DNA of 64,000 bases from Alphaproteobacteria bacterium (GTDB lineage Bacteria; Pseudomonadota; Alphaproteobacteria; Rs-D84). The stretch spans positions 114,995 through 178,994 of the forward strand of contig SUUL01000002.1 of the NCBI GenBank assembly GCA_015062545.1, given 5' to 3'. Each line of letters opens with the position of its first letter. Within the stretch, counting starts at the first letter, position 1. A program made the position numbers and the translations under genes. Shown here one piece after another: positions 1,795 to 29,084 of this stretch. Under the pieces are notes generated by a model, which saw only the letters and a list, made by a program, of their open reading frames with translations, ran no database searches and was not told the origin of the DNA.

Positions 1795-2321
1795 TGGTTT
1801 CGTTTCCGCGCATTATTGATATGGGTGATTTCCGGCTGGTAAAACTTGAGCCAACGGCACAAAATGCCGAACGGTTGTTGGCGGTTATAAACGCCAATCG
1901 TGAATTCCTGGGCGAATTCTTGGAATGGGTTGATGACTATAACACCACCGATAAAACGCTGGCAAATATTGAAAAATCATACGGCGATGATAAATGCGCT
2001 TACTTTATTATGGTGACAGATGATATTGTGGGCAAGATTGGCTTTGTGGATACAGACGACAATATGGGCGAAATCAGTTATTGGTTGGCGCATGGCTTTA
2101 ATGGTCGTGGCATAATGACACGCGCACTAAATAAACTGACCGAAATGGGGTTTGCTGACATGGGGCTGAAACGTATTCAGTTGACTATTGATGCCCAGAA
2201 TATTCGTTCTGCGGCGGTTGCACTGCGTTGTGGGTATGAGTGCGAGGGTATCTTGCGTAAATACTTTGTCTTGCGTGGTGTGCCACGTGATATGAAAATG
2301 TTTTCAAAGGTGGCAGTATGA
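1794..2321 (+). CDS. GNAT family N-acetyltransferase (RimL-like)
   Basis: start overlaps previous stop (coupled); 'FRLVKLEPTAQNAERLL...IGFVD...GRGIMTRAL' GNAT core. Confidence 0.6.
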   Translation: MVSFPRIIDMGDFRLVKLEPTAQNAERLLAVINANREFLGEFLEWVDDYNTTDKTLANIEKSYGDDKCAYFIMVTDDIVGKIGFVDTDDNMGEISYWLAHGFNGRGIMTRALNKLTEMGFADMGLKRIQLTIDAQNIRSAAVALRCGYECEGILRKYFVLRGVPRDMKMFSKVAV

Positions 2322-4614: not shown

Positions 4615-5160
4615 TTATGGTTTGTTCTTGAATTTAGCAAAACAGTTTATGTCGCGAAAACGATTTTCATACGGTGTCCATCGTTCCTGTTTTAATACCC
4701 CCTCTAATTCATATCCCAGATTCTTTGCGACATTTACAGAACCTATATTTCGTGTGTCATTATGAATTACTATCTTGTTGATTCCGGCTTTGAATAATTC
4801 CTGTTCTAACAGACTTACGGCTTCCATCATATATCCTTTGCCACGATATTCATTTGCCAGCCAGTACCCCAGCTCCGCTCTTTTATGTTTTGTGTCAAAA
4901 GTATGTGCTGCGCAATTTCCGATGATTTCATCGTTTAATATGATGGAATATTCGTATCCCTTGCCGGATTCCCATCTTTCATCAGATTGAATCAAGAAAT
5001 TCAATGCATCTTTTGGCGACTTTATATCGTTTATCCATAACAGCCAAGGCAACAAATATTCCTTGTTTCTAATTTCTACGTCATACAGCAGTTTTGCATT
5101 ATGCATGCATGGTTCCAGGTGTACCAATTTTATCCGTGGGCCTTTTATTGTTATTTTCAT
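4615..5160 (-). CDS. GNAT family N-acetyltransferase (RimJ/RimL-like)
   Basis: 'IKLVHLEP...AELGYWLANEYRGKGYMMEAV' GNAT motifs; third RimL-type GNAT in 5 kb. Confidence 0.6.
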   Translation of the reverse strand: MKITIKGPRIKLVHLEPCMHNAKLLYDVEIRNKEYLLPWLLWINDIKSPKDALNFLIQSDERWESGKGYEYSIILNDEIIGNCAAHTFDTKHKRAELGYWLANEYRGKGYMMEAVSLLEQELFKAGINKIVIHNDTRNIGSVNVAKNLGYELEGVLKQERWTPYENRFRDINCFAKFKNKP

Positions 5161-7463: not shown

Positions 7464-8252
7464 TTATGGTCGTATAATTTCCAACTCTATCCCGACAATA
7501 CCGTATTTGGATTCTTGGTCTTCGTCATAAAAGGCAGATATGGCATGCATCAATTTTTCAAGACTGGCAAAACCTGTACGTGGCATACTGATTTTTTTTG
7601 ACAAATCTGCAAAACTGGCGGCAATGTGCAACCGGACAATACGACATTGCATATATTCTGATGGATTTTGCGCATCGTAAAGCAATATAATATCATTATT
7701 GCGCATCTGGCGACGTTTTTCATCATACAGACGCAGTTCAATATCCTTGTCACCAGAACGCACCATTTCATAATATTTATTCTGAAGACTCATAGAAAAA
7801 CGACACTGCATATTTGGCAAGATGTGTTCCGAATAAAATTCGCGCATATCGTCAAATGGTGTGATTTGTGGGTTTAATAAATCGTTGTGGTCAACCCACA
7901 CAACAGATATTTCTTCGGCACGGTCTTCGCAAAAATTTAATTCCACATCATCGGGAACGTGAAGAATATAAAAATGATGCTCTTCGGCATACGCACCGCG
8001 TTTTTTCGCACGTTCGGGGGTCGGGTGACGAAATGCGTATGACACCGGAATTTCAACCACATTGTCCGCCAGTGCGGATGCGGATTCGCCCAATTCTTCG
8101 GTCAGTTCACGCCGCAAAGCAGACTTGAAATCTTCGCCATCGTCCAAACGACCGCCGATTGGGCCGTATCCGTTTTCGCCGTATTTCAGCAAGGCGACCT
8201 GCCCATCGCGCACCGGCAAAACATACGCAGAATAACTGATGTCTTTTATCAT
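7464..8252 (-). CDS. NUDIX hydrolase fused to ASCH (PUA-like) domain
   Basis: Nudix box 'GGRLDDGEDFKSALRRELTEELG'; the C-terminal 'DIELRLYDEKRRQMRNNDIILLY' resembles the ASCH beta-barrel N-terminus. Confidence 0.6.
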   Translation of the reverse strand: MIKDISYSAYVLPVRDGQVALLKYGENGYGPIGGRLDDGEDFKSALRRELTEELGESASALADNVVEIPVSYAFRHPTPERAKKRGAYAEEHHFYILHVPDDVELNFCEDRAEEISVVWVDHNDLLNPQITPFDDMREFYSEHILPNMQCRFSMSLQNKYYEMVRSGDKDIELRLYDEKRRQMRNNDIILLYDAQNPSEYMQCRIVRLHIAASFADLSKKISMPRTGFASLEKLMHAISAFYDEDQESKYGIVGIELEIIRP

Positions 8253-8722
8253 TTTTGTTCCTTTGATGCACTGCGATACGATTTACATTCGGAATATATT
8301 TCGCCACGCGCCAATCCCGCCAATGATATACGGGTTGTTGAAACAACGTTTTTCAGTTTGGCGACTTCGTCCAATGTGAAATACTGCATATCTGCACACT
8401 TGTCCCCTTCGCAGTTGCGAATTGTGCCAGTGTATTTTGATACCTCGAAAAAGAAATCAAAAGATTCTGTGCGACTGGCCAGATTGCTGATGACGTGTAC
8501 GCATTTGATGTCATCTGGTGCAATATCAATATCCAGTTCTTCTTTGGCTTCACGTATGGCGGCATCACGTGCGGTTTCGCCCTGCTCTATGTGTCCCGCA
8601 GGCAACACCCACCAACCACCATCATAATTAAAGAAACCATCATTGCGGAAGAACAGCAAGACCCGGTCGTCTTGCTTGATAATCAGGTTAATTACGCCCT
8701 TGAACATTGCGCGTTCTGACAT
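8249..8722 (-). CDS. NUDIX hydrolase
   Basis: Nudix box 'GHIEQGETARDAAIREAKEELDI'; overlaps upstream gene by 4 nt. Confidence 0.7.
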   Translation of the reverse strand: MSERAMFKGVINLIIKQDDRVLLFFRNDGFFNYDGGWWVLPAGHIEQGETARDAAIREAKEELDIDIAPDDIKCVHVISNLASRTESFDFFFEVSKYTGTIRNCEGDKCADMQYFTLDEVAKLKNVVSTTRISLAGLARGEIYSECKSYRSASKEQK

Positions 8723-8949: not shown

Positions 8950-9975
8950 ATGGGAATTAAACCTGCAAAATTAAATATTGGCGATACGATTGCGACCGTT
9001 TCACTGTCGTGGGGTGGTGCTGGCCTGTTGCCGGAACGCTATGCCCAGGCAAAACGACAACTGGAACAAACATTTGGGGTAAAAGTGATTGAAGCACCAC
9101 ATGCACTGGATGATGCGCAATACCTGTACGAACATCCCGAGATTCGCGCATCTGACATGATGTGGGCGTTCAAAAAACCGGATGTTAAGGCAATAATTTC
9201 TAACATCGGTGGCGATGACACCATTCGTATGTTGCCATATATTGACTGGGATATCATTCGCAATAACCCCAAAATTTTTATGGGATATTCTGATACAACG
9301 GTAAACTGCCACATGTGCCATTATGCAGGACTAAACAGTTTTTATGGTCCGTCAATGTTGGTGCAAATGGCCGAAGCAGGCGGAATATTGCCTTATGTTG
9401 AAAACAGCATGCGCAAGGTTTTATTTGATAATTCACCGGTTGGAATTGTGCCAGAAAACAAAGATGGGTTTACATACGAACGCGTAGATTGGTTTACGCC
9501 TGCGGGGCAAACACAAGTTCGCAAAATGCAACAAACAGACGGATGGCATTGGATTCAAGGTTCGGGCGTTGTTAGTGGCGAACTGTTTGGTGGTTGTATG
9601 GAAGTGATTGAGATGATAAAGGGCACACAAATCTGGAATCCTGATAATTTCAAGGATAAAATTGTATTCTTTGAGATTTCCGAAGAGAATCCAACCCCTG
9701 ATCAGGTTTTGTATTGGCTGCGCAATTATGGGGCGTGTGGAATCTTGCAACAAATGCGTGCCATTATTTTCGGTCGTCCAAAGAATGAAAACAACCCAAA
9801 ATATGAAAAACGTATTTTACAGGCCTTGGCGGAATTTGGTTTAACGGATATGCCAGTTGTAACACACTTTGATATCGGGCATACCGACCCGATTATGGTT
9901 ATGCCTGTTGGATGCGTGGCAAAACTGGATTGCGATAAACACACATTTGAAATCACAGAAAACGCAGTGGTGTAA
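8950..9975 (+). CDS. ldcA: LD-carboxypeptidase (peptidase S66, LdcA/MccF-like)
   Basis: 'IISNIGGDDTIRMLPYIDW...MGYSDTT' with Ser in the SDTT context typical of S66; 341 aa. Confidence 0.7.
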   Translation: MGIKPAKLNIGDTIATVSLSWGGAGLLPERYAQAKRQLEQTFGVKVIEAPHALDDAQYLYEHPEIRASDMMWAFKKPDVKAIISNIGGDDTIRMLPYIDWDIIRNNPKIFMGYSDTTVNCHMCHYAGLNSFYGPSMLVQMAEAGGILPYVENSMRKVLFDNSPVGIVPENKDGFTYERVDWFTPAGQTQVRKMQQTDGWHWIQGSGVVSGELFGGCMEVIEMIKGTQIWNPDNFKDKIVFFEISEENPTPDQVLYWLRNYGACGILQQMRAIIFGRPKNENNPKYEKRILQALAEFGLTDMPVVTHFDIGHTDPIMVMPVGCVAKLDCDKHTFEITENAVV

Positions 9976-10186
9976 AAAATGACCAATCGATGGATATTTC
10001 TTGCCGTCAAATACCGCATATTGCCCCGACTTTACATTTACTGGCTTTTCAAACGTTGCTTTGTTCGATTCATTGGGCGATTGTGTTTCTTTATTGCTAT
10101 TATTTGATTTTTGTTCTGGCCCATTAAGTTTCAGTCTAATTTTTCATAATTGACACCTATCAGGCATAGCAATATAATATATATAG

Positions 10187-10621
10187 ATGACTAAAAACGC
10201 GTGTTTTTTTATATACATTTTATGTTCTTGTATGCTGATTCATCAATCGGCAAGATGTGAAAACACAAACCAAAAGTGGGTTGGAAAGTGGTATCTAAAT
10301 GACCAGGACACTGTTTTTGGTGGGGTAATGGATGTTTCTAACTGCGATGATACAACATGTGATTTTAAATTGGAATCGTGGTACGATTTACATATCTGTG
10401 ATGTTGACGGTAAAATAAAAATCAACGGAGACAAGGCAGAATACAACGACAAAAAACATCAATATGACAGAGAGACAGATACGGAATATTTTATTCCTGT
10501 TGGTATATTGTTTCAAATGGAGTCAGAAGATAAAATGAATCTGCGTTTTATCAATGCAGATTCATTTAGTGCTTTTTGTGGTATGCAAGCAACACTTGAA
10601 GGGATATGGATTAGACAATAA
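10187..10621 (+). CDS. hypothetical secreted protein
   Basis: hydrophobic N-terminus, Cys-containing, no known motif. Confidence 0.4.
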   Translation: MTKNACFFIYILCSCMLIHQSARCENTNQKWVGKWYLNDQDTVFGGVMDVSNCDDTTCDFKLESWYDLHICDVDGKIKINGDKAEYNDKKHQYDRETDTEYFIPVGILFQMESEDKMNLRFINADSFSAFCGMQATLEGIWIRQ

Positions 10622-11134
10622 TTAGTATTTATTCGTTCGTATTGTCCAACCATTTTTTGCCGTTTTCCAGTTTTTTGTCCCCTTTAAGTAATCTATTCTT
10701 TCGGTTTTTAGCACAACCATAAATTCGTTGACTTTGCTATCAGGAATCGTATTTATGGATTTAATTGTTTCGCTGCCTATGGCACCATCAACAACCAAGT
10801 TCGCATCCAAAAAAGAATTTAGTGCACGTTGAACTGTCTTTCCGGCACCTCCCATCACATTCATATCAAAAACTGCATCACGTATTCTGTCGTTTGTGAT
10901 TTCTGGGATTCGTGTATTGTCCCAATATTCGTTTTTATAAATTTCTTTGGCCTGTGCGGCTGTTAAATATTTTACATCTGCTGGGAAATTTTTGTCTGGG
11001 TACTTGGCAGAATATCTGTCCAGTGTACTTTGTTTAATTCCCATATTTGTTGGTTCGTCCTTAATCTGATTCTTGCCATCTGTATATCCCCCTTCGGGTT
11101 CTTTTAACTTGTTGTATGCACTTTCAAATTTCAT
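10622..11134 (-). CDS. GH108-family lysozyme with C-terminal PG_binding_3 domain
   Basis: 'EPEGGYTDG...MGI' (EGGY motif), 'FDMNVMGGAGKTVQRALN', 'LVVDGAIGSETIKSIN' peptidoglycan-binding motif. Confidence 0.6.
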   Translation of the reverse strand: MKFESAYNKLKEPEGGYTDGKNQIKDEPTNMGIKQSTLDRYSAKYPDKNFPADVKYLTAAQAKEIYKNEYWDNTRIPEITNDRIRDAVFDMNVMGGAGKTVQRALNSFLDANLVVDGAIGSETIKSINTIPDSKVNEFMVVLKTERIDYLKGTKNWKTAKNGWTIRTNKY

Positions 11135-11289
11135 ATAGTTTTCCTTTTGTTCAAAAAAATCCCGCGCGTGGCGGGAAAATAAAAATTATCAATGTTTGAT
11201 GTTAAATCGATACAGCCCGCCAAACCTGGAACCCATCCGCCATGAATTGAAAAATCATCATATTGGTTTCTTTTGATGGTTTTATCCAT
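11121..11289 (-). pseudogene. orphan C-terminal fragment of YkuD/Tlde1-like toxin (copy A)
   Basis: encodes 'MDKTIKRNQYDDFSIHGGWVPGLAGCIDL...' starting in-frame right after the stop of the upstream membrane-protein gene; homologous to residues ~95-135 of 12176..12628. Confidence 0.6.
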
Positions 11290-11307
11290 ATGCACAAGAT
11301 AAGTGTC

Positions 11308-11661
11308 TTATCTTTGTATTAAATAAGAGAGTAAATTTAGCACAATTTCCATAACAACTGGTATAGAAAGCAAAATACAAGATTGAATATATTTATGCCT
11401 TGCTCCCTTATATATTCCAACAAACAAACACGATAACTGTATAAGCAAATATATTAACAACAAGACAACATAATAAATTGTGCGTATTTCCACCCCCATA
11501 AATTCAATAAACTTACAGCATTCTCCGTACAGCATATATGGATATGGAGCCATAGTAAAAACATATCGTAATTCGGAAATTGGAACCAGTATTGCTATAA
11601 AAGATAAACATAATAGCAATACCCATCCCAAAATACATAAAATTGATTTAACTAATTTCAT
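11308..11661 (-). CDS. small multi-TM membrane protein (candidate immunity protein)
   Basis: 117-aa, three to four hydrophobic helices; lies between toxin fragment copies. Confidence 0.5.
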   Translation of the reverse strand: MKLVKSILCILGWVLLLCLSFIAILVPISELRYVFTMAPYPYMLYGECCKFIEFMGVEIRTIYYVVLLLIYLLIQLSCLFVGIYKGARHKYIQSCILLSIPVVMEIVLNLLSYLIQR

Positions 11662-11671
11662 CAATGGTATT

Positions 11672-11812
11672 TTACATTGATAATTAAATCATGTCCATTC
11701 TTTTCAAACCATTGTGTAAAATCATCGATATGATTTGTTAAATTAAAACCCATCCGCCATGAATAATAAAATCATCACGACCGTATGTGTTGGTTTCTTT
11801 TGCCAGACTAAA
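11672..11812 (-). pseudogene. orphan C-terminal fragment of YkuD/Tlde1-like toxin (copy B, frameshifted)
   Basis: 'LAKETNTYGRDDFIIHGGW' then a frameshift; the second frame reads 'LTNHIDDFTQWFEKNGHDLIINVKY*' matching the C-terminus of 12176..12628; the catalytic Cys segment is deleted. Confidence 0.65.
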
Positions 11813-12161
11813 ATTTTGCATAATGATATAACAAGGCACCAAGCAAAGAATCTATACAAGATATTATAATTGGACTTAACGCGAGCCAGAAAGATACTTT
11901 ATAGTTTTTCTTATACAAAAAATACACCGATACTGGAATAAAAAACAACAGCGTAGCACAAGAAGATACCAGATTTGTTAAATATATGTCTGCACTACGC
12001 CATGCCCATCCCATGGACTCTCCACCCCATGGACAACGTGCAAATGGAAACGCATCACGACATTCTTTGATAAAAAATTCATAATAATCAGTAAACAGTC
12101 CATATAAAAGCAATACATTTATACCAAGACAAATTATCGTGCCACGTTTCCATTTTTGCAT
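11808..12161 (-). CDS. small multi-TM membrane protein (candidate immunity protein)
   Basis: 117-aa hydrophobic protein 14 nt downstream of the toxin gene. Confidence 0.5.
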   Translation of the reverse strand: MQKWKRGTIICLGINVLLLYGLFTDYYEFFIKECRDAFPFARCPWGGESMGWAWRSADIYLTNLVSSCATLLFFIPVSVYFLYKKNYKVSFWLALSPIIISCIDSLLGALLYHYAKF

Positions 12162-12175
12162 ACATAACCCTTTTG

Positions 12176-12628
12176 CTAGTATTTTACATGTACAATCAGG
12201 TCTTTTCCAGTACTTTCTAGCCAGGATGTAAAAGCATTTATTTGCCCTGTCATATCAATACAGCCCGCTGACCCCAGATTCCATCCGCCATGAATTGAAA
12301 AATCATCACGACCGTATGTATTGGTTTCTTTTGATGGTTCCAACCATACACGAGAGCTGCCCCAAGAATATTCAGAACCCGGCCATTCGCCTACACCCGC
12401 CAGCCCGATAATTGCATTTGTTACAGAAAGGTGTTGCAACTCACTTTGTCTTGCAACGTATGTGCCTTCGGGGATTGGTCCTGTATCTTTTAGGTTTTGA
12501 TATTCAGGACTTCTGTATCCATCTTTGCCCGACACAGCATCCCACGACATAATTGGTTTGTCGTTTTCATACAGTGTAAATTTCTTGCCGTCAAACAATA
12601 CCTGGAACAACTTATGTCGATGATTCAA
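12176..12628 (-). CDS. putative L,D-transpeptidase-fold toxin (YkuD/Tlde1-DUF2778-like)
   Basis: C-terminal 'DDFSIHGGWNLGSAGCIDM' with a His..Ser/Gly-Cys arrangement like YkuD/Tlde1 active sites; two orphan C-terminal copies lie downstream. Confidence 0.45.
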   Translation of the reverse strand: MNHRHKLFQVLFDGKKFTLYENDKPIMSWDAVSGKDGYRSPEYQNLKDTGPIPEGTYVARQSELQHLSVTNAIIGLAGVGEWPGSEYSWGSSRVWLEPSKETNTYGRDDFSIHGGWNLGSAGCIDMTGQINAFTSWLESTGKDLIVHVKY

Positions 12629-12634
12629 TAATCA

Positions 12635-12970
12635 CTAATCACGCTGAAAATAAAACTTACATCCATCCAAATAAACATATATAGAATTTGGATTGGGTGC
12701 ATAAAATTTTTCTGTTGTGCCTGTGTCTTTTTTAACCAAAATTTCTTGGGCTTTTTCGTCATTATCATAACCGCCGATGGCGATGTTTGAACTATTGATT
12801 TCAAATGAAGTATTTTCATAAAAATTCTGGGCAACATATTCACAATCTGCAGTTATGTATCCAGCATATTCAAATCGTCCAAAAGACCATTTGCCGCAGA
12901 ACTCACAAGATTTACTGTCTGTAGAGCTACAACCAATCAAAAATACACAAACCAAAACTATCTTTTTCAT
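12635..12970 (-). CDS. lipoprotein
   Basis: 'MKKIVLVCVFLIGCSS' signal peptide with lipobox L-I-G-C. Confidence 0.6.
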   Translation of the reverse strand: MKKIVLVCVFLIGCSSTDSKSCEFCGKWSFGRFEYAGYITADCEYVAQNFYENTSFEINSSNIAIGGYDNDEKAQEILVKKDTGTTEKFYAPNPNSIYVYLDGCKFYFQRD

Positions 12971-13002
12971 GCAACACAGTATAAATGATACGATTGTAAA
13001 AA

Positions 13003-14139
13003 TCAATATATACCGCGTTTATACAAGTTCCATTCATTTTGTCTGCGGTTAATTAAACCGTTTGATACTTTTCCCTGGGTGCGATTCCATGCCCGCCATG
13101 CGGATTCTAAATCCGAATAAACAGAACTATGAAAATCCGGGTTGTTTATATATTTTACAACTGTTGAATTCTTAAACCCACCCGAACCGATGTTATATGC
13201 CAAAGACACCAATGCGTCATATTGGTTTTGCGCCAACGGAACCGTGATATTATCATTTACTGCACGTTCTGCCACGGCGATATCAGAACGTAATAATGCA
13301 ATCGCCTGCCGTTCTGTGATTCCGTTTGTAAAATCTTCACCCGGCTTTACCAAATGCCCATAGCCAATTGTTGCGCCTTTTGGTAAAGGCTCGTTTGGAT
13401 TTACTGGTTTTTTCGTAGCGTCATCATATATAACATGATTGCCCCGCTTGTCTAACACTCTGTCTTCTTTACCTTTTAACCATTCAATACCTTTATCACT
13501 CATTTTCATATCGGATACCTTATTTGATTTTTGTTCTGTTTTATATGGCTTTGTGCTGATTGTTTTGCCGTTTTTATCCAGTGTTTCTTCGGTAATATGG
13601 CATGCGCAGTTTTCATGAACTGGGCATACGGGTATGTCGTCTGGAAAAAAATAAACCGTGCCATCACGAGATTCGCATTCATCGCAAGTATTTTCGCCGC
13701 CACTGCTGTGCCACCGCCATATCTTGGGGGCAATTTTAAATTCAGGTATGTCCAATTCATATGTATCCAATTGCCGTTTTGATATGTAACCACCTGGCAT
13801 TAAAACTTTGACCGGTATCGGGTCGCCAGAGACAACATAATCTTCAATATTAAAATCAAAGCCAATGTTTTCAAAGTAGTCCTCAAAGTCTTCCATAACT
13901 TCTTCGGTGGCATCATCTTTTTCTGCTTCAAAATCTGCGTCTATTTCGGCCTGTGCCGCATTAAATTGTTTTAATGTCATATCGTATTCTGGGCGCATCA
14001 TACGACCAGATGCATCAAATTGCACCGTGCCAGGATATAGTATGTTCATATACTTTGTTGCCCGTCTATATGTTTCGCTGTTTTTATCGCCGTATTCGGG
14101 CGATGATAATAATTCCTGTAAAAATTTTGGTGTTTGCAT
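13003..14139 (-). CDS. phage MuF-like (head-morphogenesis C-terminal motif) protein fused to GH24 lysozyme
   Basis: 'CDECESRDGTVYF...PVCPVHENCACHI' resembles the MuF/SPP1 gp7 C-x-x-C...P-H-P-N-C-R-C motif; C-terminal 'GATIGYGHLV...ITERQAIALLRSDIAVAERAVN...PLAQNQYDALVSLAYNIGSGGF...NRRQNEWNLY' is a T4-lysozyme-like GH24 domain; GGAG RBS before ATG 14139. Confidence 0.6.
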   Translation of the reverse strand: MQTPKFLQELLSSPEYGDKNSETYRRATKYMNILYPGTVQFDASGRMMRPEYDMTLKQFNAAQAEIDADFEAEKDDATEEVMEDFEDYFENIGFDFNIEDYVVSGDPIPVKVLMPGGYISKRQLDTYELDIPEFKIAPKIWRWHSSGGENTCDECESRDGTVYFFPDDIPVCPVHENCACHITEETLDKNGKTISTKPYKTEQKSNKVSDMKMSDKGIEWLKGKEDRVLDKRGNHVIYDDATKKPVNPNEPLPKGATIGYGHLVKPGEDFTNGITERQAIALLRSDIAVAERAVNDNITVPLAQNQYDALVSLAYNIGSGGFKNSTVVKYINNPDFHSSVYSDLESAWRAWNRTQGKVSNGLINRRQNEWNLYKRGIY

Positions 14140-14247
14140 TTTATTCTCCATAAAAAACACCCGCGTGTGCGGGTAATAAAAAAGACGACAAAATGTCGTC
14201 TGTCTGATGCCGCGTATTATACCATAAAACGTACTAAAAATCAATAA

Positions 14248-14296
14248 AAAACACCCCGTTGGGGTGCTTTTTTATAATGGGGCGGATAACCGGACT
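14248..14296. repeat. direct repeat of tRNA-His 3' end (19 nt) plus its downstream terminator (30 nt)
   Basis: 48/49 identity to 28871..28919. Confidence 0.85.
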
Positions 14297-14460
14297 GTAA
14301 ATCCCCATCTGCGCCACGTTGGCGCGATGGGCCCCATTCACTACGTAAGGTTCAAACGGCGCATACGCTTGTTTTCACCAACTGGCGTTCCGAACCCTTT
14401 TGGGGTTCTCGTCCGCGCCCCATACAAAAATTAAACGACCGGCAAGCGGTCGTTGATTTT

Positions 14461-14481
14461 TTGGTGGGGACACAGGGACTC
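14461..14481. repeat. 21-nt copy of tRNA-Lys 3' end
   Basis: identical to 20152..20172. Confidence 0.7.
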
Positions 14482-14650
14482 CCTCGCACGGTGCAAAGCA
14501 CCGGCTGCGGGGCATTCCTGACAAATCGCCTGCGCTGCGCTTGGCTCTTTTACTCATTGTCGACCCTACGCCATTAGCATGGCTTTTACGGGTTCTTCGT
14601 CCCGTGTCCGCAGAAATAAAAAAACCACCCTGCGGTGGTTTTCTTATTTC

Positions 14651-14696
14651 TGGTGGGGACACAGGGACTCGAACCCTGGACCCAATGATTAAAAGT
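14651..14696. repeat. 46-nt copy of tRNA-Lys 3' end (att site of integrative element)
   Basis: 46/46 identical to 20153..20198. Confidence 0.9.
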
Positions 14697-14834
14697 TAGC
14701 TACGTATGTTTATTTTACTGTGTTTACTGTGATTATGTTTATTTTTACTTTGCATACTGGAATTAAACGGGACATATTCGGGTTTTATTTTAGATTTATG
14801 TGAATGCGTCTTATTATACAAAAAAAGGATACGC

Positions 14835-15983
14835 ATGAAAGCAAAGTTTAATTTTACAGATACTGCTATTAGTAAAATTACACCACCACATAAAAATGTA
14901 CAAAAACTTGTATTCAGCGACAACTATCAACGTGGACTTGTATTAATTGTTGGATACGGTGGCAAAAAAGCTTTTTATTTCAGGGGCAAACAACATAAAA
15001 AGAAAATTATGTTTAAAATTGGCGAATTCCCGTATATGAACACAAATAAAGCAAGGGAAAAGGTGTTTGTGCTGTACAACGACTTAAAAAGGGGAATATT
15101 GCAACAACCTGATATAAAACTGCAACACATTACACTAAAACAGCTGTTTTATGATGAATATATCCCAAAACATGCAAAAATATTTAAAAAACACAATGCA
15201 TGGCAAATAAATGAACGTACTTTTAAAACACACTTTAAAATTATTGAGAATATTGAGATAGATAAGCTGACAAGGAACAATATTGACATATGGCACAAAA
15301 GCATTGGTAAAAATAGTGGCATATACATGGCAAACAGATGTCTGGCATTGATACGCCACATGTTAAATATGGCAATAGATTGGGGGTTGTTGACTATCAA
15401 TCCTGCACAGAACATACGGCAATTTAAAGAAGTAGCACGTGATAGATTTTTGCAACCGGCAGAAATAACAAACTTTATGCAAGCATTGATGGGCACAACA
15501 AATGAAATGTTTAAGCATTTTATACTGCTGTTATTATATACAGGGCAACGAAAAGCGAACATTTTAGCGTTACGTTGGGAACATATAAATCTGCATAATT
15601 GTATATTGTACCTGCCAGACACGAAAAACAATCAATCCCAACAGATTCCACTTACTAAACAAGCAATAAATGTTTTAAAAGACATAGGCATAAAAGACTT
15701 TGGTTGGGTATTCCCCAGCAAACAAAGTACAAGCGGACATATGGAAAACCCAAAACGATACTGGGCAGAATTGCTAAAAAAAGCGAATATAACTAATTTA
15801 AGAATGCACGATTTAAGACGTACAATGGGCAGTTATCAGGCAATAGTTGGCAGCAGTATGAATATTATTAGCAAGTCGCTGGGGCACAAATCAATACAAT
15901 CAACAGCAGTGTATGCAAGACTTTCATTAGAACCTGTAAGGGAATCAATGCAAAAAGCAACAGACGAGATAATGAAATATTAA
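14835..15983 (+). CDS. int: tyrosine recombinase/integrase (P4-like)
   Basis: C-terminal 'LRMHDLRRTMGS...LGHKSIQSTAVYARL' R-H-R-Y catalytic motifs. Confidence 0.85.
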   Translation: MKAKFNFTDTAISKITPPHKNVQKLVFSDNYQRGLVLIVGYGGKKAFYFRGKQHKKKIMFKIGEFPYMNTNKAREKVFVLYNDLKRGILQQPDIKLQHITLKQLFYDEYIPKHAKIFKKHNAWQINERTFKTHFKIIENIEIDKLTRNNIDIWHKSIGKNSGIYMANRCLALIRHMLNMAIDWGLLTINPAQNIRQFKEVARDRFLQPAEITNFMQALMGTTNEMFKHFILLLLYTGQRKANILALRWEHINLHNCILYLPDTKNNQSQQIPLTKQAINVLKDIGIKDFGWVFPSKQSTSGHMENPKRYWAELLKKANITNLRMHDLRRTMGSYQAIVGSSMNIISKSLGHKSIQSTAVYARLSLEPVRESMQKATDEIMKY

Positions 15984-16057
15984 AAAAATTTTTGCAGTTG
16001 GTTAACTTCTGACTATGCTATCGTTTATTATTTTATTCATGTAAAAAAGGATGAAAC

Positions 16058-16774
16058 ATGAATAAAATAAAAATACATTTGGGATACGAGGCACAAACAT
16101 TTGAACACAGGGACTTTAAATCTTTTGACATAGATTTAACCACATTTCCAGCATTGTTTATTGATTATAATAATAATTATTTTGGGGTAACAGCTGACCC
16201 AATCACATTATCAATTATTAGTCAAATAAAAGACCTAGATAAAAAAAATAGAACACTACACACTGTTATTATAGACAAAGGTAGAATAACGCATAATTCA
16301 GCTATGCCAGAAGGAACGTACAAAAAAAATGACCCCGGAATAATGATAAAAAGATTAACTGCAATTGTAGCAAAACGTTATGAAAAAAGTTTGCAAGACG
16401 AAAGCTACCTTACTCACCATAAGTACGTAGTGATAGTAAAAGGAATTAATGGACTGGAAGCATTATTGACTAAAATGATGTCTATGCTTGGTGCAGTTGG
16501 GGTCTACTTAATAATGGCTGACAACAGCAGTGAATTAGAAGGATATAGCTATTTAAAAGAGTATTTATACGGCCAAATAACTTATGCAAGCCAATGGGAT
16601 ACACCTGCAGGGGTTGGTATATGTCCTTCAGAATACGGCCCTAGTTATGGGATAGTTACAGAAAGATTCAAACCCGAGTACAAATGTAGTAAAGATATAT
16701 ATTCAGATTTTAATTATAAAAAAATAATAACTCGCGAACCAACGCCTATAGAATGGTTGTTTAGTCAATTATAA
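16058..16774 (+). CDS. hypothetical protein
   Basis: 238-aa ORF with no recognised motif. Confidence 0.4.
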   Translation: MNKIKIHLGYEAQTFEHRDFKSFDIDLTTFPALFIDYNNNYFGVTADPITLSIISQIKDLDKKNRTLHTVIIDKGRITHNSAMPEGTYKKNDPGIMIKRLTAIVAKRYEKSLQDESYLTHHKYVVIVKGINGLEALLTKMMSMLGAVGVYLIMADNSSELEGYSYLKEYLYGQITYASQWDTPAGVGICPSEYGPSYGIVTERFKPEYKCSKDIYSDFNYKKIITREPTPIEWLFSQL

Positions 16775-17011
16775 CCTTGCTTTTATTGTAATTTTTATGA
16801 TAGTATTCCCTTGAATCATATAAGTGGTTCAAGGGCGTCAGAACCCTGTTAATGCATTGTATCCGTGGGGATATTAAACACCTCCGACTGTAATTGGTTG
16901 GAGGGTGGCGAAATATCAAAATAAGCCCGCTATTTTCAATGCATTATAGTTCTGAACCTCCAACCACCAGTATGATTTGGTGGTTTTTTATTAACATAAA
17001 AAGGATGAAGC

Positions 17012-17236
17012 ATGGCTTTTGTAATAATGATAGCGTGTTTGGCGGCATACTTCTTGCCAACGATTGTTGCTGTACTGAACAGCAAATGTACAAACAAGAT
17101 TGGTATTTTTATATTGAACTTGTTATTGGGTTGGACGTTTATAGCATGGGTTATTGCGTTAGTAATGGCATGTGGTAATGGCGTACGTGAAACAATAGTT
17201 ATAAACAATGATAATTCAGCTAAAACAGCAAAATAA
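17012..17236 (+). CDS. superinfection immunity protein (Imm_superinfect family)
   Basis: 74 aa, two TM helices, 'YFLPTIVAV...LNLLLGWTFIAWVIALVMA' signature. Confidence 0.6.
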   Translation: MAFVIMIACLAAYFLPTIVAVLNSKCTNKIGIFILNLLLGWTFIAWVIALVMACGNGVRETIVINNDNSAKTAK

Positions 17237-17293
17237 TACTGGGTTGGGTGCAAAAATGCCCAACCTTATTATTTTACAACAAAGGACACACAG

Positions 17294-18523
17294 ATGAAAG
17301 TACAAGCATTATTAGCGGTGTTATTACTGTCTGCATGCGGTGGTTTAACACAAGAGAAATTTTATGAAGATACTAACAATGCACAAAAAGCAACCGAATT
17401 AAGTGGTAAGGCAATACGAACATCAGATTGTGATAAAATTGGGCAATTATATGAGTTTTCGGTTATGGACAACCCAACCGCAAGTGATTTAGAAGCAATA
17501 TTGCCATTGTTGGGCGTACAAAAGAAAGATTTTAAAAATATAGATAAGCTATATACATTAGATTTAAGTGCAGTAGATAAATTAAAATGCGAAGACAACA
17601 GAGATAAACTTGGTAGTGAAGCACGCCGGTATTGCAAAGATAAGTATTATGACGAATATGGTATTGAGACTGCAATGTACTTTCCATTCAGATTGGTTTC
17701 GACAGTATCTGTATTTACTATAGTCGGTGCAATTCCTTTTATGGCACATAGTTGTGGCATGGAATCAGTATGGCATCCAATTGCATGTAATAGAATGCTA
17801 GATTGTAGAAAACACTTAATGCAAACGGTAAATACAGGCACAGAAGATTATTCTGGTGTACGTAAAAGCAAGATAAAAGAGCAGATACAGGCAAAAATAA
17901 GGCAAATATACGCAATTCCTAATGTATGTAAAAATTATCATACATATACAAATGATTATGGTAAAACGATAAAAGAATATGACGAAAAATTTCATTATGC
18001 GTTTTCAGAATTTAAGCCAAGTGAAATGATAGCAGCAGCAAATAAAACGATTGGTACATATGATGACGACTGCATGAATGGCACAATATGTGATAATAAC
18101 GACACAAAAATAGTAACTGGGGCTAATGTAGCAAAAGTGTTATATAATCATTGCAGTAATGATATTGATATGTGGCTTAGAACAGATGACTATATAAGCT
18201 TTAATTGTTCTTGTTTTGCACGCAATGCTTACAAAGACGTTTCATACAAGAATATGTTGTACATTTATGAAAACAAAGAATTCCCACAAAGCAAAGAAGC
18301 AGAACTGACAAGGCAAATGCGCAACTGTAAAAACAAATGGGACAAGCAAGTTGCACAACAGCAGATAAACAGATATGGCGAAACAACGGACGGACAGACA
18401 AATAGTGATGTAGAAGCAGCTATTAATAACGTTGTAGACGCAGTGCAGAATGCGGTTTGGATGAACGAACAATTAACTGAAAAAAGGAAAGATATAGAGA
18501 ATTTGCGAGATTTGGACATATAA
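17294..18523 (+). CDS. Cys-rich lipoprotein, hypothetical
   Basis: 'LLAVLLLSACGG' lipobox; 409 aa with many Cys. Confidence 0.5.
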   Translation: MKVQALLAVLLLSACGGLTQEKFYEDTNNAQKATELSGKAIRTSDCDKIGQLYEFSVMDNPTASDLEAILPLLGVQKKDFKNIDKLYTLDLSAVDKLKCEDNRDKLGSEARRYCKDKYYDEYGIETAMYFPFRLVSTVSVFTIVGAIPFMAHSCGMESVWHPIACNRMLDCRKHLMQTVNTGTEDYSGVRKSKIKEQIQAKIRQIYAIPNVCKNYHTYTNDYGKTIKEYDEKFHYAFSEFKPSEMIAAANKTIGTYDDDCMNGTICDNNDTKIVTGANVAKVLYNHCSNDIDMWLRTDDYISFNCSCFARNAYKDVSYKNMLYIYENKEFPQSKEAELTRQMRNCKNKWDKQVAQQQINRYGETTDGQTNSDVEAAINNVVDAVQNAVWMNEQLTEKRKDIENLRDLDI

Positions 18524-18723
18524 AATTGCATAAATAACAATAGGAACTGACACCATTAGGCAATATTGGACGCTAACTATTGTTACGAGCAAGAAATAAT
18601 ACAAAAGGCACTGACAATACATGCAGTGCTTTTTTATTATTTTTTTGACGCAGGACAGCGATAAAAAAAACTCCTTAGAAACAACAAGATAGCGTCTTAA
18701 TATATAGGTATAGGAGTAAAAAA

Positions 18724-19260
18724 ATGAATATAAATATTATATTAAAGAACAAATTAATGTTTGATTTGGCTAAATGCCCCCACACACTTGTTGTTTGCAA
18801 AAATAAAACACGAGAAACAACAGTAAAATATATTGTAGGCGAACTGTTAAAACAAAATATTACTTGTATAGAAACAGATAGCATAGCAGAAATTGAAGAA
18901 GAGCTGGAAGATAGATACAGACTGTTTATTGAAACAGAAACAAGCAGTATTGAAGAATATAACGCAAAACACGAAGATAAATTAGACTATTGGGTAATTA
19001 TTATAAAGGATATTAGCTCGTACGATGCATTAAAAGAAATACTTATGAAAGGACGTGCAGCAGGCATTCATGTAATGCTGTTTGTAAAGAACTTTAGCGG
19101 TATAAAGAAAGATAAAGAGCTGATACATATGTTTCCTGTAAGATTAATATATAGAAATTCACACAAACGCGAAACTGTTATTGTTATTAGCGAAATTGGT
19201 AAAGGGGCTAAAATATTAAAATTAGACGACGATAACAAGACAAACAGTGAAGTAATATGA
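18724..19260 (+). CDS. hypothetical protein
   Basis: 178-aa ORF. Confidence 0.4.
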   Translation: MNINIILKNKLMFDLAKCPHTLVVCKNKTRETTVKYIVGELLKQNITCIETDSIAEIEEELEDRYRLFIETETSSIEEYNAKHEDKLDYWVIIIKDISSYDALKEILMKGRAAGIHVMLFVKNFSGIKKDKELIHMFPVRLIYRNSHKRETVIVISEIGKGAKILKLDDDNKTNSEVI

Positions 19261-19301
19261 CGCACAGCTTTAACGACAGCTAGGCAATAAAAAAACGCTG
19301 T

Positions 19302-19835
19302 TTATACAGCGTTAAATAACATAGAGCTGGTATACATATTTTCAAAATCTATATGACGCTTATGTAATGGATATTCTTTAACAATATAATTAAACACATC
19401 GTAGTTAAATACAGTACGTGTAAGCAAGTGATTGTGTACAGGTGTATAATTATTGTTTTTTTGAAATGACTCGCTGTATGTATCGTAAGTAAGATATAGG
19501 TATGGACAATGTAGTAAAGTCTTTTCGATTGCTGTATTAAAGTCGCTTGTTGTTTGTTGCATAAGGTTAAATACAGAATGTACATGTAAGATATTGGTTT
19601 TGCCATGCTCTATAATAGTAATAGAAGGCAACGGATGCTTAAACCAGTTACGTCCTTGAAAATGTGTTAATATACGTGAATATATTTTTCTGGTTTTTTG
19701 CTTGGCTTCTTCTATACTTTTTTGCTGTTGATTGAAGCGCAATGTGCAAAAAACAAGATTGTCAGACAAATGCATAGATAATGCTTGCTTGATAAAGTGT
19801 ATAACAGCTGATTGATGTAATTGTTTTACATTCAT
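19302..19835 (-). CDS. hypothetical protein with HUH-like motif (possible rolling-circle Rep)
   Basis: 'NILHVHSVF' H-u-H-u-u-u plus downstream Tyr cluster 'YLYLTYDTY'; tentative. Confidence 0.3.
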   Translation of the reverse strand: MNVKQLHQSAVIHFIKQALSMHLSDNLVFCTLRFNQQQKSIEEAKQKTRKIYSRILTHFQGRNWFKHPLPSITIIEHGKTNILHVHSVFNLMQQTTSDFNTAIEKTLLHCPYLYLTYDTYSESFQKNNNYTPVHNHLLTRTVFNYDVFNYIVKEYPLHKRHIDFENMYTSSMLFNAV

Positions 19836-20152
19836 AATAAACTCCTTTGTATATAAAAATAATTTGATTTAGGGTATAGCTCTCACATAGGAAAAAGCGA
19901 AGTCTTTCCTTTGTGTCGGGCGCAAATCCCATAAATTTATGTCAGCACCCGATTTGCTAAAATAAATTTTATGGGTGATATATAATATATTTATCGCAAA
20001 AACTAAATTTTGTGAACCAAAGTGAAAAATTTTTTTCGTAAAAATTGCAGTAGTGGACGAAAAAGGGACAAAAAAGGGAAATAAAATTAGCAATAAAATT
20101 GACGCAAACAAACAAAACAAATAAAAAACCTGCTGATTTCAGCGGGTTATCT

Positions 20153-20228
20153 TGGTGGGGACACAGGGACTCGAACCCTGGACCCAATGATTAAAAGTCA
20201 TTTGCTCTACCAACTGAGCTATGTCCCC
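20153..20228 (-). tRNA. tRNA-Lys (anticodon TTT)
   Basis: manual cloverleaf: acceptor GGGGACA/TGTCCCC, anticodon loop cTTTTaa, TTCGAGT T-loop, CCA encoded; stem-loop + T-run terminator at 20128..20150. Confidence 0.85.
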
Positions 20229-28808: not shown

Positions 28809-28900
28809 ACCTAAATATTATTTTTTTGACAAAATAAAGTCAATGCAAATATGAATATATTCCAAAATTGAAAACACCCCGTTGGGGTGCTTTGTTATAA

Positions 28901-28978
28901 TGGGGCGGATAACCGGACTCGAACCGGCGACATTTGGTACCACAAACCAACGCTCTAACCAACTGAGCTATATCCGCC
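28901..28978 (-). tRNA. tRNA-His (anticodon GTG)
   Basis: manual fold: extra G-1, anticodon loop ttGTGgt, T-loop TTCGAGT, CCA encoded; hairpin + T-run terminator downstream at 28866..28900. Confidence 0.85.
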
Positions 28979-29008: not shown

Positions 29009-29084
29009 TGGTGGAGCTGATCGGACTCGAACCGACGACCCCTTGCATGCCATGCAAGTGCTCTACCAACTGAGCTACAACCCC
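29009..29084 (-). tRNA. tRNA-Ala (anticodon GGC)
   Basis: manual fold: G3:U70 identity pair, anticodon loop atGGCat, CCA encoded. Confidence 0.8.

What the first reader, a model, noticed from the sequence alone, without database searches (positions are those of the whole stretch)
14248..14697. Stack of att-like remnants (tRNA-His 3' end + terminator, two tRNA-Lys 3' copies) around a 350-bp GC-rich structured spacer
Three different partial tRNA 3' ends sit within 450 bp. The first is a 49-bp copy of the tRNA-His 3' end plus its terminator (intact gene 14.6 kb away at 28901). The others are a 21-nt and a 46-nt copy of the tRNA-Lys 3' end (intact gene at 20153). The intervening 14297..14650 is about 55% GC, compared with about 40% for the genome, and is full of GC hairpins (gcgccacgttggcgc; acgaccggcaagcggtcgt; ccaccctgcggtgg). 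It contains no plausible ORF. This looks like a recombination hotspot where successive elements integrated. The 49-bp repeat pair (14248/28871) would bracket 14.6 kb that includes core-like genes (recG, M48 protease, MFS), which hints at rearrangement after integration.
Basis: seen in the sequence. Interest (0 to 1): 0.55.

Follow-up and report, generated by a model that had tools for sequence, protein, structure and literature searches.

The report
Mobile structured mini-cassettes at tRNA T-loops
The "GC-rich spacer" between the partial tRNA ends is two intact copies of an undescribed family of about 185-bp structured elements, which insert at one exact point in the T-loop of tRNA genes in gut alphaproteobacteria, rebuild the tRNA end each time, and stack up in arrays without carrying a recombinase gene of their own.

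Summary
On the minus strand lie a 46-nt tRNA-Lys 3' copy, a 19-20-nt tRNA-Lys tail and a 19-nt tRNA-His tail with its terminator. The segment is 52-56% GC against 40.6% for the window.

The spacer is not decayed filler. It holds two complete units of a modular element found next to tRNA genes in Candidatus Enterousia (Rs-D84) genomes and gut metagenomes: about 20 copies at seven tRNA species.

Each unit contains:
- a tRNA tail (positions 58-76);
- an intrinsic terminator;
- an arm that is the reverse complement of that tRNA's 3' third, with GA opposite G57/A58;
- a direct GGTTCG;
- a conserved core of about 100 nt, followed by the next tail.

The core fold shows covariation (97.6% paired, 0 of 500 shuffles). 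Units are 89-99.5% identical between species whose flanks are about 71% identical. Half of the tRNA-Lys sites are empty. Truncated and chimeric copies break exactly at GGTTCG|.

I conclude that these are horizontally mobile, recombinase-less cassettes inserted at T-loop position 57/58. A 5.5-kb integrase island then entered the same tRNA-Lys. The His tail is a module swap, not the edge of a 14.6-kb island. The recombinase, and whether the active form is RNA or DNA, remain unknown. No Rfam family matches.

The parts
20153..20228 (-). Intact tRNA-Lys(ttt). It is the original insertion target of the array. Its 3' 46 nt and its terminator are now supplied by the 5.5-kb island.
   Evidence: ARAGORN; Rfam tRNA, 77.5 bits; sequence.
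14697..20152 (.). A 5.5-kb low-GC island (about 0.28-0.39 GC) inserted in tRNA-Lys at the anticodon loop. It carries a P4-type tyrosine integrase (14835-15983, + strand), a G2P-like Rep (19302-19835, - strand) and a weak FtsK-like ORF. It is the most recent insertion and is unrelated to the small elements.
   Evidence: 46-nt exact direct repeat (D3); GC profile; Pfam; the same island end follows tRNA-Lys in L017.
14651..14696 (-). Displaced native 3' part of tRNA-Lys (anticodon loop to CCA). It is the distal att repeat of the 5.5-kb island. Its last 19 nt (14651-14669) serve as the proximal tail of unit 1.
14621..14650 (-). Unit 1 terminator ('terminator A': GAAATAAGAAAACCACC-GCAG-GGTGGTTTTTTT). 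It travels with class-2 cores in L004, L008 and L010.
14560..14612 (-). Unit 1 fold-back module. It consists of an antitail TGCGGACACGGGAC (14599-14612), GAA, the P2 5' strand GAACCC, an inserted small hairpin, and a direct GGGTCGA (14560-14566). The arm is the reverse complement of tRNA-Lys positions about 49-76.
14481..14559 (-). Unit 1 core, class 2 ('RNA2'). The whole unit is 99.5% identical to the one in L010.
14462..14480 (-). tRNA-Lys tail copy (positions 58-76). It is the distal tail of unit 1 and the proximal tail of unit 2.
14426..14461 (-). Unit 2 terminator ('terminator B': AACGACCG-CTTGC-CGGTCGTT plus a T-run). It travels with class-1 cores in L002, L011, L013, L014 and L028.
14391..14422 (-). 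Unit 2 fold-back module. It consists of an antitail TGGGGCGCGGAC (14411-14422; His-type, equal to the reverse complement of the His tail with a 6-nt deletion), GA, and hairpin P2 GAACCCC-AAAA-GGGTTCG.
14297..14390 (-). Unit 2 core, class 1 ('RNA1'). It has a long irregular hairpin P3 and a hairpin P4, with invariant unpaired blocks (CAGTTGG, ACGTAG, GAAWGGGG). It ends in TTAC.
   Evidence: Covariance model R1, 162.8 bits; covariation.
14278..14296 (-). tRNA-His tail copy (positions 58-76), which closes unit 2.
14243..14277 (-). Copy of the tRNA-His terminator. It always accompanies His tails in L013.
   Evidence: (D2).
28866..28977 (-). Intact tRNA-His(gtg) at 28901-28977, together with its terminator. 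This is the second copy of the 54-nt repeat.

Best explanation
Window 14278-14650 (minus strand) holds two tandem units of a previously undescribed family of small modular elements. Each unit is about 185 bp and carries no gene. The elements insert at one phosphodiester bond of tRNA genes, between G57 and A58 of the T-loop.

A unit consists of:
- a replacement tRNA tail (positions 58-76), which keeps the tRNA intact;
- its own intrinsic terminator;
- a fold-back arm that is the reverse complement of the tRNA's 3' third, with a conserved GA opposite G57-A58;
- a short direct GGTTCG (T-loop 5' half);
- a conserved, GC-rich core of two hairpins.

The core abuts the displaced native tail. New units enter at the tRNA and push older ones outward, which builds arrays.

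The order of events in this window was as follows. A class-1 unit inserted first and a class-2 unit second. The 5.5-kb integrase island then inserted into the same tRNA-Lys at its anticodon loop. The class-1 unit also exchanged its tail, terminator and downstream cassette with a tRNA-His-linked copy, at the core|tail junction.

Shown:
- the anatomy of the unit;
- conservation of the fold, with covariation;
- the match between arm and tail and the local tRNA, at seven tRNA species;
- presence/absence polymorphism;
- much higher identity than the flanks;
- recurrent breakpoints at GGTTCG|.

Inferred: movement is by site-specific recombination at the T-loop, catalysed by an enzyme encoded elsewhere. 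The fold-back arm lets one strand fold into a duplex copy of the target site, comparable to an integron attC site or the folded attP of CTX phage. Alternatively, or in addition, the arm closes a stable non-coding RNA.
For: Homologues lie 35-45 nt downstream of intact tRNA genes in related species. The layout is always tRNA - terminator - body - tail of that same tRNA.

Seven tRNA species are used: Lys-UUU, Lys-CUU, His, Glu-UUC, Glu-CUC, Leu-CAA and Val-CAC.

Covariance model R1 finds 15 class-1 loci at E<1e-33 and nothing else in 0.4 Mb.

The core fold is 97.6% paired. Six pairs show changes on both sides. The covariation score is 0.231 against 0.093 in shuffles (0 of 500 reach it), and slid controls give 0.043 or less.

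The fold-back arm aligns best to the reverse complement of the cognate tRNA in 6 of 8 types. The match includes T-stem bases that fall in the P2 loop and are therefore not explained by pairing within P2. The antitail matches the cognate tail best in 6 of 9 types. L014 shows a compensatory change: the tail reads C->T and the antitail G->A.

Units are 89-99.5% identical between species, while 1 kb upstream of tRNA-Lys is 70-73% identical. Nine of 18 tRNA-Lys sites are empty, and there the native terminator is followed by core genes.

In L010 and L013 the distal tails are followed by the native terminator and carry point mutations. This is as expected for displaced copies.

Independent rearrangements break at GGTTCG|:
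- extra truncated units in L023 and L027;
- a truncated unit in L008;
- a class-1/class-2 chimera in L007;
- a core sitting in a direct tRNA-Lys fragment in L029.

A unit delimited from tail to core folds with z = -6.6 and z = -4.5. The version delimited from antitail to tail gives z = -3.0 and z = -3.6.
Against: No recombinase was found next to any copy. The only integrase in the window uses a different 46-nt site at the anticodon loop.

An excised double-stranded circle of about 185 bp would be very small for a classical tyrosine integrase.

The core's two junctions (GGTTCG|G... and ...AC|A) share no overlap sequence. Insertion of the core itself therefore does not look like conservative recombination.

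Class-1 units at tRNA-Lys keep a His-type antitail in five species. The arm is thus not re-templated at each move.

L027's antitail fits its tail poorly.

High identity could partly reflect strong selection on an RNA rather than transfer.

No expression data are available and no excision product has been seen. Nothing was found in viral contigs.
Confidence: 0.5

Rival explanations
1. The elements are structured non-coding RNA genes linked to tRNAs. Each body is transcribed with, or just after, the tRNA. The antitail pairs with the tRNA-derived tail to form a closing helix that resembles the acceptor/T-stem minihelix. This helix defines and protects the RNA ends. Copies spread mainly by transformation and homologous recombination, using the tRNA and the tail as anchors. 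The function lies in the RNA and is unknown.
For: The bodies share the orientation of the tRNA and a terminator follows every tail. GC is 55-58% in a 40% GC genome. The four-helix fold shows covariation and has invariant unpaired blocks. G-U pairs slightly outnumber A-C mismatches on the tRNA-sense strand, about 3 (7 if the GG[A/G]:UCC helix is counted) against 2. The two single mutations in distal tails (L010 C70U, L013 A73G) keep wobble pairing with the antitail.
Against: No promoter exists between the upstream terminator's T-run and the antitail; only weak -10-like strings are present. The register of the closing helix differs between members and buries the CCA in the His version, so the helix is not a faithful tRNA mimic. 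Arm bases in the P2 loop match the tRNA without any pairing need. Truncated, chimeric and arm-less copies are hard to explain for a housekeeping RNA. Distal tails decay in L022 and L027. There is no Rfam relative.
Confidence: 0.25
2. The partial tRNA ends are scars of successive larger islands that have since decayed or been deleted, and the DNA between them is leftover, non-functional island sequence.
For: Tail duplications from the T-loop to CCA are the classical signature of tRNA-targeting integrative elements. One true island is present in the window. A lone His tail next to AT-rich DNA exists in L013 at 12814.
Against: The same 130-nt bodies occur intact, with the same boundaries, in at least 20 loci at seven tRNA species. 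They show compensatory base changes and 89-99.5% identity across species whose flanks are about 71% identical. No protein-coding remnant is present.
Confidence: 0.08
3. The core is a miniature single-strand DNA transposon of the IS200/IS605 (PATE-like) type. An HUH transposase in trans pastes it 3' of TTCG in T-loop-like hairpins, without target duplication. The tail, terminator and fold-back module is a separate structure that supplies non-essential T-loop targets.
For: The core lies exactly between G57 and A58, with no duplication of its own. It has subterminal hairpins (P3 and P4) and no terminal inverted repeats. It occurs in two kinds of host site, a fold-back copy and a direct tRNA-Lys fragment. 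The modules are separable: L023 and L027 hold fold-back modules without cores.
Against: No TnpA or TnpB gene was seen in any locus. P3 and P4 are unlike each other, whereas the end hairpins of IS200/IS605 elements are similar. TTCG alone would give many non-tRNA targets, and none was found: all 5 true hits of the one metagenome scan lie at tRNAs. The L029 arrangement can also arise by deletion between two GGGTTCG repeats.
Confidence: 0.1
4. The core is RNA-mobile: an intron-like or retro-element. It enters T-loops at the RNA level, or it uses the tRNA 3' end as a primer, with the antitail acting like a primer-binding site. The 18-19-nt tail would then reflect a reverse-transcription stop at position 58.
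For: The tail length (59-76, or 58-76) equals the classical 18-nt primer-binding-site length. The arm holds both flanks of the core on one complementary strand, as an internal guide does. The core starts G-R-R-C-G and ends in AC.
Against: No reverse transcriptase gene is nearby. The core is far too small for a group II intron and lacks the hallmarks of group I. There is no Rfam ribozyme hit. No intact tRNA gene was found interrupted by the core.
Confidence: 0.05

Closest known systems
tRNA-gene-targeting integrative elements of the T-loop sublocation class (for example mycobacteriophage Ms6 at tRNA-Ala; PMC1762012; classification recalled from Williams 2002)
   Same: The insertion point lies in the T-loop. 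The element carries a copy of the tRNA 3' end, so the gene stays intact. The displaced native tail remains as a direct repeat. Successive insertions stack up.
   Different: The unit is about 185 bp, against several kilobases or more for known elements. It carries no integrase or any other gene. It has a fold-back arm complementary to the target and a conserved structured core. Its modules recombine at GGTTCG|.
Integron gene cassettes with attC sites, and the folded single-strand attP of CTX phage
   Same: Promoter-less units accumulate in arrays at one entry site, with the newest unit proximal. Each unit carries an imperfect palindrome (tail - terminator - antitail) that can fold into a duplex copy of a recombination site, with mismatches at the crossover point. 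No recombinase is encoded inside the unit.
   Different: No IntI-type or Xer-type enzyme and no attI were identified. The R-box consensus (GTTRRRY) is absent. The cargo is a non-coding structured segment rather than an ORF. The entry site is an essential tRNA gene that has to be rebuilt.
Cis-mobilizable elements (CIMEs) and MITE-like non-autonomous elements
   Same: They are non-autonomous, bounded by att-type or inverted repeats, and presumably mobilised in trans.
   Different: CIMEs are kilobase-scale deletion derivatives of ICEs. MITEs have constant terminal inverted repeats and short target duplications. Here the inverted repeat changes with the target tRNA.
Rickettsia palindromic elements and other small selfish palindromic repeats of alphaproteobacteria (recalled, not tested)
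   Same: They are elements of about 100-150 bp in reduced alphaproteobacterial genomes. They are hairpin-forming, carry no gene, and are tolerated at sensitive sites.
   Different: RPEs insert in frame into many protein genes and are dispersed. These elements are strictly specific for tRNA T-loops, carry a tRNA tail and terminator, and form arrays. No sequence comparison could be made.

Membership tests
tRNA-targeting integrative element (T-loop class) | Direct repeat equal to the tRNA 3' end from the T-loop to CCA, with an intact tRNA at one end | tested here: met
   Tails of 19-20 nt covering positions 58-76 are present in every unit, and the proximal tRNA is intact.
tRNA-targeting integrative element (T-loop class) | An integrase gene encoded within the element | tested here: not met
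   Units are about 185 bp and contain no ORF. No integrase lies near any copy. The window's only integrase belongs to the island with the 46-nt att site.
tRNA-targeting integrative element (T-loop class) | Occupied and empty sites exist among relatives | tested here: met
   Among related species, 9 of 18 tRNA-Lys sites are empty and retain the native terminator.
Integron cassette / attC | An imperfect palindrome at each cassette boundary | tested here: met
   Tail - terminator - antitail forms a hairpin of 30 to about 40 bp.
Integron cassette / attC | R'' / R' core sites (RYYYAAC ... GTTRRRY) and an adjacent intI with attI | tested here: not met
   No such consensus appears in the units (read). 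No integrase gene lies adjacent to the tRNAs.
IS200/IS605-derived miniature element (PATE) | No terminal inverted repeats, no target duplication, subterminal hairpins, and insertion 3' of a fixed short sequence | tested here: inconclusive
   The core fits these points: it lies 3' of TTCG, has hairpins P3 and P4, and ends in NNAC. However, the two hairpins are dissimilar.
IS200/IS605-derived miniature element (PATE) | A cognate Y1 transposase (TnpA) in the genome | not testable with these tools
   Only 64 kb of the genome and about 20-kb loci are available, and none was seen there.
tmRNA (including permuted alphaproteobacterial ssrA) / tRNA-like RNA | Recognised by ARAGORN or by the Rfam tmRNA and tRNA models; T-arm and alanine acceptor identity | tested here: not met
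   ARAGORN finds no tmRNA. The Rfam tmRNA hits of 16 bits or less only cover the tRNA-Lys fragment. The tails are Lys, His, Glu, Leu or Val rather than Ala.
Any Rfam 15 family | Score at or above the family's gathering threshold | tested here: not met
   Only tRNAs pass. The best other hits score 32 bits or less against thresholds of 40-115 and are hairpin artefacts.
MITE | Constant terminal inverted repeats recognised by one transposase, plus a short target-site duplication | tested here: not met
   The inverted repeat (antitail and tail) differs for each tRNA species.

The most novel reading that the evidence does not exclude
A new kind of cassette system exists in which tRNA T-loops act as entry sites and each cassette carries a fold-back copy of the target. 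A single DNA (or RNA) strand then folds into its own duplex recombination site, with the conserved core branching out exactly at the crossover. The system would be an integron-like or viroid-like mobile unit of about 185 nt, without a gene, moved by a still unknown enzyme that cuts T-arm-shaped nucleic acid between G57 and A58.
Probability: 0.3. Interest if true: 0.85.

Novelty: new variant of a known kind. Interest (0 to 1): 0.68.

Why it matters
If this is correct, genomes of under 1 Mb in a widespread group of gut alphaproteobacteria (Rs-D84; PMC12306168) host a mobile element that is smaller than any known integrative element. The element targets essential single-copy tRNA genes without harming them, and it carries a built-in complementary copy of its target.

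Three consequences follow:
- It would point to an unidentified T-loop-specific recombinase or nuclease, which could serve as a programmable tool because the arm and tail change with the target.
- It would explain the stacks of tRNA gene fragments that confuse tRNA annotation (PMC9897764).
- It would supply portable homology that appears to shuffle the toxin and cell-wall-hydrolase cassettes downstream of tRNAs.

It also adds at least one structured nucleic-acid family with covariation support that is absent from Rfam.

Tried and rejected
**tmRNA or permuted tmRNA.** The host is an alphaproteobacterium, so I considered this. ARAGORN and Rfam are negative and the acceptor identities are wrong.

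**Known RNA family.** Four Rfam scans, including permissive scans of short stretches, found nothing. A cow-rumen-3 hit of 12.5 bits is noise.

**Dispersed repeat within the window.** No further copies exist.

**Phage or viral origin.** Two pattern scans of viral contigs gave 0 hits.

**Protein-coding.** The ORFs are mechanical, and only two spurious clusters turned up.

**A 14.6-kb island bracketed by His tails.** The interval holds core genes and no integrase, and a module swap explains the repeat.

**Faithful tRNA minihelix mimic (an RNase P or CCA-enzyme substrate).** The register varies between members, and the CCA is paired in the His version.

**Antitail as a product of compensatory evolution only.** Arm bases that match the tRNA lie in the P2 loop, where no pairing requires them.

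**Arm re-copied from the target at every insertion.** Class-1 units keep a His-type antitail at tRNA-Lys in five species.

**Integrase search.** A tblastn search with the window's integrase against all loci found only itself. Pfam scans of neighbouring genes in L013 and of the left third of the window found no recombinase.

**Exact-protein look-up of the gene next to tRNA-Lys.** It is not on record.

**One model for both classes.** The class-1 covariance model does not recognise the class-2 core in the window. The two cores are therefore treated as separate classes that share one frame.

**Literature.** Four searches (a fifth call was rejected as malformed) found no description of such elements.

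Full report
**Observation**

ARAGORN and Rfam find three tRNA genes: Lys(ttt) at 20153-20228, His(gtg) at 28901-28977 and Ala at 29009-29084.

The repeats are as follows.
- The 46-nt tRNA-Lys 3' end is repeated exactly at 14651-14696.
- The 19-nt Lys tail AGTCCCTGTGTCCCCACCA occurs three times, with 0 matches expected by chance.
- The His tail plus its terminator is repeated over 54 nt at 94% identity, with 25 nt exact.

GC is 0.52-0.56 across the segment, against 0.406 for the window.

**Local anatomy**

Reading the minus strand, the order is:
1. intact tRNA-Lys;
2. a 5.5-kb low-GC island;
3. the 46-nt displaced tRNA-Lys end;
4. terminator A;
5. a 130-nt GC-rich body ('RNA2');
6. a Lys tail;
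7. terminator B;
8. a second 130-nt body ('RNA1');
9. a His tail;
10. the His terminator;
11. a strong promoter with two hairpins, followed by a MuF/lysozyme gene.

The island carries a P4-type integrase at 14835-15983.

Both bodies are about 148 nt long. Each folds into a long closing helix plus three hairpins (z = -3.0 and z = -3.6). They share the motif GGACGA(A)GAACCC at the 5' end. No Rfam family matches either body, and no further copy exists in the window.

**Relatives**

A scan with the neighbouring MFS protein identified the organism as a Candidatus Enterousia-like gut alphaproteobacterium. It returned 20 syntenic loci from different species, with 59-68% protein identity. Enterousia belongs to the order Rs-D84, whose members have reduced genomes of about 0.75-1 Mb (PMC12306168).

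In these loci both bodies reappear directly downstream of intact tRNA genes.
- RNA1-type copies follow tRNA-Lys in L001, L002, L011, L013 and L014.
- RNA2-type copies follow tRNA-Lys in L004 and L010. L008 holds a truncated one.
- L007 holds a chimera of the two types.
- An RNA1-type copy follows tRNA-His in L013, and another follows tRNA-Glu in L010.

One metagenome scan with a core pattern added copies after tRNA-Glu(ttc), tRNA-Leu(caa), tRNA-Glu(ctc), tRNA-Val(cac) and tRNA-Lys(ctt). Spurious antisense ORFs in the protein collection led to two more kinds of locus.

In every case the body ends with the last 19 nt of the tRNA it follows. A covariance model built from 13 class-1 copies finds 15 loci at E<1e-33 and nothing else in 0.4 Mb.

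**Structure**

On the class-1 alignment, the consensus hairpins P2, P3 and P4 are 97.6% paired. Six pairs show changes on both sides. The covariation score is 0.231 against 0.093 in shuffles (0 of 500 reach it), and it collapses when the partners are slid.

Several unpaired blocks are invariant: CAGTTGG, ACGTAG and GAAWGGGG. The class-2 core is not recognised by the class-1 model, and too few copies exist to test covariation in it. I therefore treat it as a second core class in the same frame.

**The fold-back arm**

The first 25-30 nt of each body are the reverse complement of the 3' third of the adjacent tRNA, positions about 49 to 76. The cognate tRNA is the best match in 6 of 8 types. For the tail alone, the cognate is best in 6 of 9 types.

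The match includes tRNA-specific T-stem bases that end up in the P2 loop:
- Val: GAACCAAC
- Leu: GAACCGA
- Glu-CUC: GAAGCCGT

Pairing inside the body cannot explain these bases, so at least part of the arm was copied from a tRNA gene.

Opposite G57-A58 the arm almost always reads GA instead of TC. After the arm come a short loop, a direct GGTTCG (positions 52-57), the core, and then the tail (58-76). A unit therefore looks like a fold-back copy of the tRNA's 3' third with the core sitting exactly between positions 57 and 58.

The arm can pair in two ways.
- It can pair with the upstream tail across the terminator, giving one long hairpin. This pairing produces the MIR1862 pseudo-hits, and the unit folds with z = -6.6 and z = -4.5.
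- It can pair with the two flanks of the core, giving helices P1 and P2.

**Evidence for mobility**

- Nine of 18 tRNA-Lys sites are empty. They keep a native terminator, and in L016 and L019 a core gene follows it.
- In L010 and L013 the same native terminator follows the distal tail. The inserted piece is therefore tail + terminator + arm + core, entered at the T-loop.
- Distal tails carry mutations in L010, L013, L022 and L027, as expected for displaced copies.
- Terminator type travels with core class: terminator A with class 2 and terminator B with class 1.
- Whole units are 89-99.5% identical between species, while 1 kb upstream of tRNA-Lys is 70-73% identical.
- Arrays occur in the window, in L022 (with a third kind of body), in L023 and in L027.

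Five independent rearrangements break right after GGTTCG:
- L023 and L027 hold extra units that stop there.
- L008 is truncated there.
- The L007 chimera switches class there.
- In L029 a class-1 core sits at position 57/58 of a direct, degenerate tRNA-Lys fragment with no arm.

This recurrence points to a site-specific process at T-loop-like sequence.

**What this means for the window**

1. A class-1 unit entered tRNA-Lys.
2. A class-2 unit entered next and pushed the first unit outward.
3. The 5.5-kb island then entered at the anticodon loop and displaced the 46-nt end.

The class-1 body is 97.8% identical to the tRNA-Lys-linked copies of L001 and L011. It is nevertheless followed by a His tail, the His terminator and the promoter cassette, and in L013 these follow the tRNA-His-linked copy.

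An exchange within or beside the shared GATGGGGATTTAC|AGTCC junction accounts for this arrangement. The 14.6 kb between the two His repeats holds recG, an M48 protease and MFS genes, with no integrase, so it need not be an island.

**Mechanism**

I commit to insertion at G57|A58 by an enzyme encoded elsewhere. The element supplies the tail and a terminator so that the essential tRNA survives. The arm provides a self-folded copy of the target site.

The enzyme is not identified. No integrase or HUH gene lies near any copy, and viral contigs lack the element.

The main rival is a tRNA-linked non-coding RNA gene. Same-strand orientation, a terminator after each tail, a slight excess of G-U pairs and invariant loops speak for it. 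The absence of a promoter, the variable register of the helix and the modular debris speak against it.

A single-strand DNA transposon reading of the core, and an RNA-mobile reading, remain possible at low probability.

**Novelty**

The family is absent from Rfam 15. Searches of the paper library found no description of it. It shares the T-loop target and tail duplication of known tRNA-targeting integrative elements. It differs from them in size, in the lack of any gene, in the target-complementary arm, in the conserved structured core, and in module shuffling.

Noticed in passing
window 14697-20152: A 5.5-kb low-GC island sits in tRNA-Lys, bounded by 46-nt exact att repeats. It carries a P4-type integrase, a G2P-like replication protein (filamentous-phage type) and a weak FtsK/SpoIIIE-like ORF, so it is possibly an integrated inovirus-like element. 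The same island end follows tRNA-Lys in L017.
   Followed up: partly
window 14140-14244 (minus strand); also L001 12329, L004 12850, L010 17239, L013 439 and 1508, L018 2439: A recurrent cassette leader is present. It has an extended promoter (TTGATT/TTGAAA - 17 nt - TATAAT, preceded by TTTTATG). Two tandem hairpin/T-run terminators follow (GACGAC..GTCGTC TTTTTT; CCCGC..GCGGG TTTTTT), directly before the RBS of toxin or hydrolase genes. It is found downstream of tRNA-His, tRNA-Lys and tRNA-Glu in many species. It may be an antitermination-controlled leader or a tiny sRNA.
   Followed up: partly
window 8950-14139: A cluster of cell-wall-active and toxin-like genes lies downstream of the array. 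It comprises a MuF-like/lysozyme fusion (13003-14139), Tlde1/YkuD (12176-12628), GH108 (10622-11134), LD-carboxypeptidase (8950-9975) and small ORFs without a family that may be immunity genes. Similar sets follow tRNA-His in L029.
   Followed up: partly
L022 1900-2130 (minus strand): A third, unrelated body of about 200 nt lies between tRNA-Glu and a class-1 unit. It starts with a nearly perfect antitail (CAGCAGTCCCAACCGGAT) and ends with a partial Glu tail (GTTGGGGCTGCCA). The frame therefore seems to carry more than two kinds of core.
   Followed up: no
alignment A4, the W of GAAWGGGG and the R of GGGRAT (window about 14337 and 14304): Two unpaired positions co-vary perfectly: T goes with G in 5 copies and A with A in 8 copies. 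No predicted helix explains this. It may be a tertiary or non-canonical contact, or it may reflect lineage.
   Followed up: no
L013 12814-12860: A solitary tRNA-His tail plus His terminator is preceded by AT-rich DNA and a 498-aa methyltransferase-like gene. It lies 12.6 kb from tRNA-His, has no body and no integrase, and the interval again includes tRNA-Lys and core genes.
   Followed up: partly
window 52735-52986 (minus strand): CAGTTGCAAAAA occurs nine times at 15/30/45-nt spacing inside a 145-aa ORF (52655-53092). This is a tandem 5-residue repeat in a small protein and accounts for the most over-represented 12-mers of the window.
   Followed up: no
window 1204-2321, 4615-5160, 7464-8722: Three GNAT acetyltransferase genes and two NUDIX genes (one fused to ASCH) lie in 9 kb. 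The density is unusual for a genome of under 1 Mb. NUDIX and ASCH genes also occur in the cassette region of L029.
   Followed up: no
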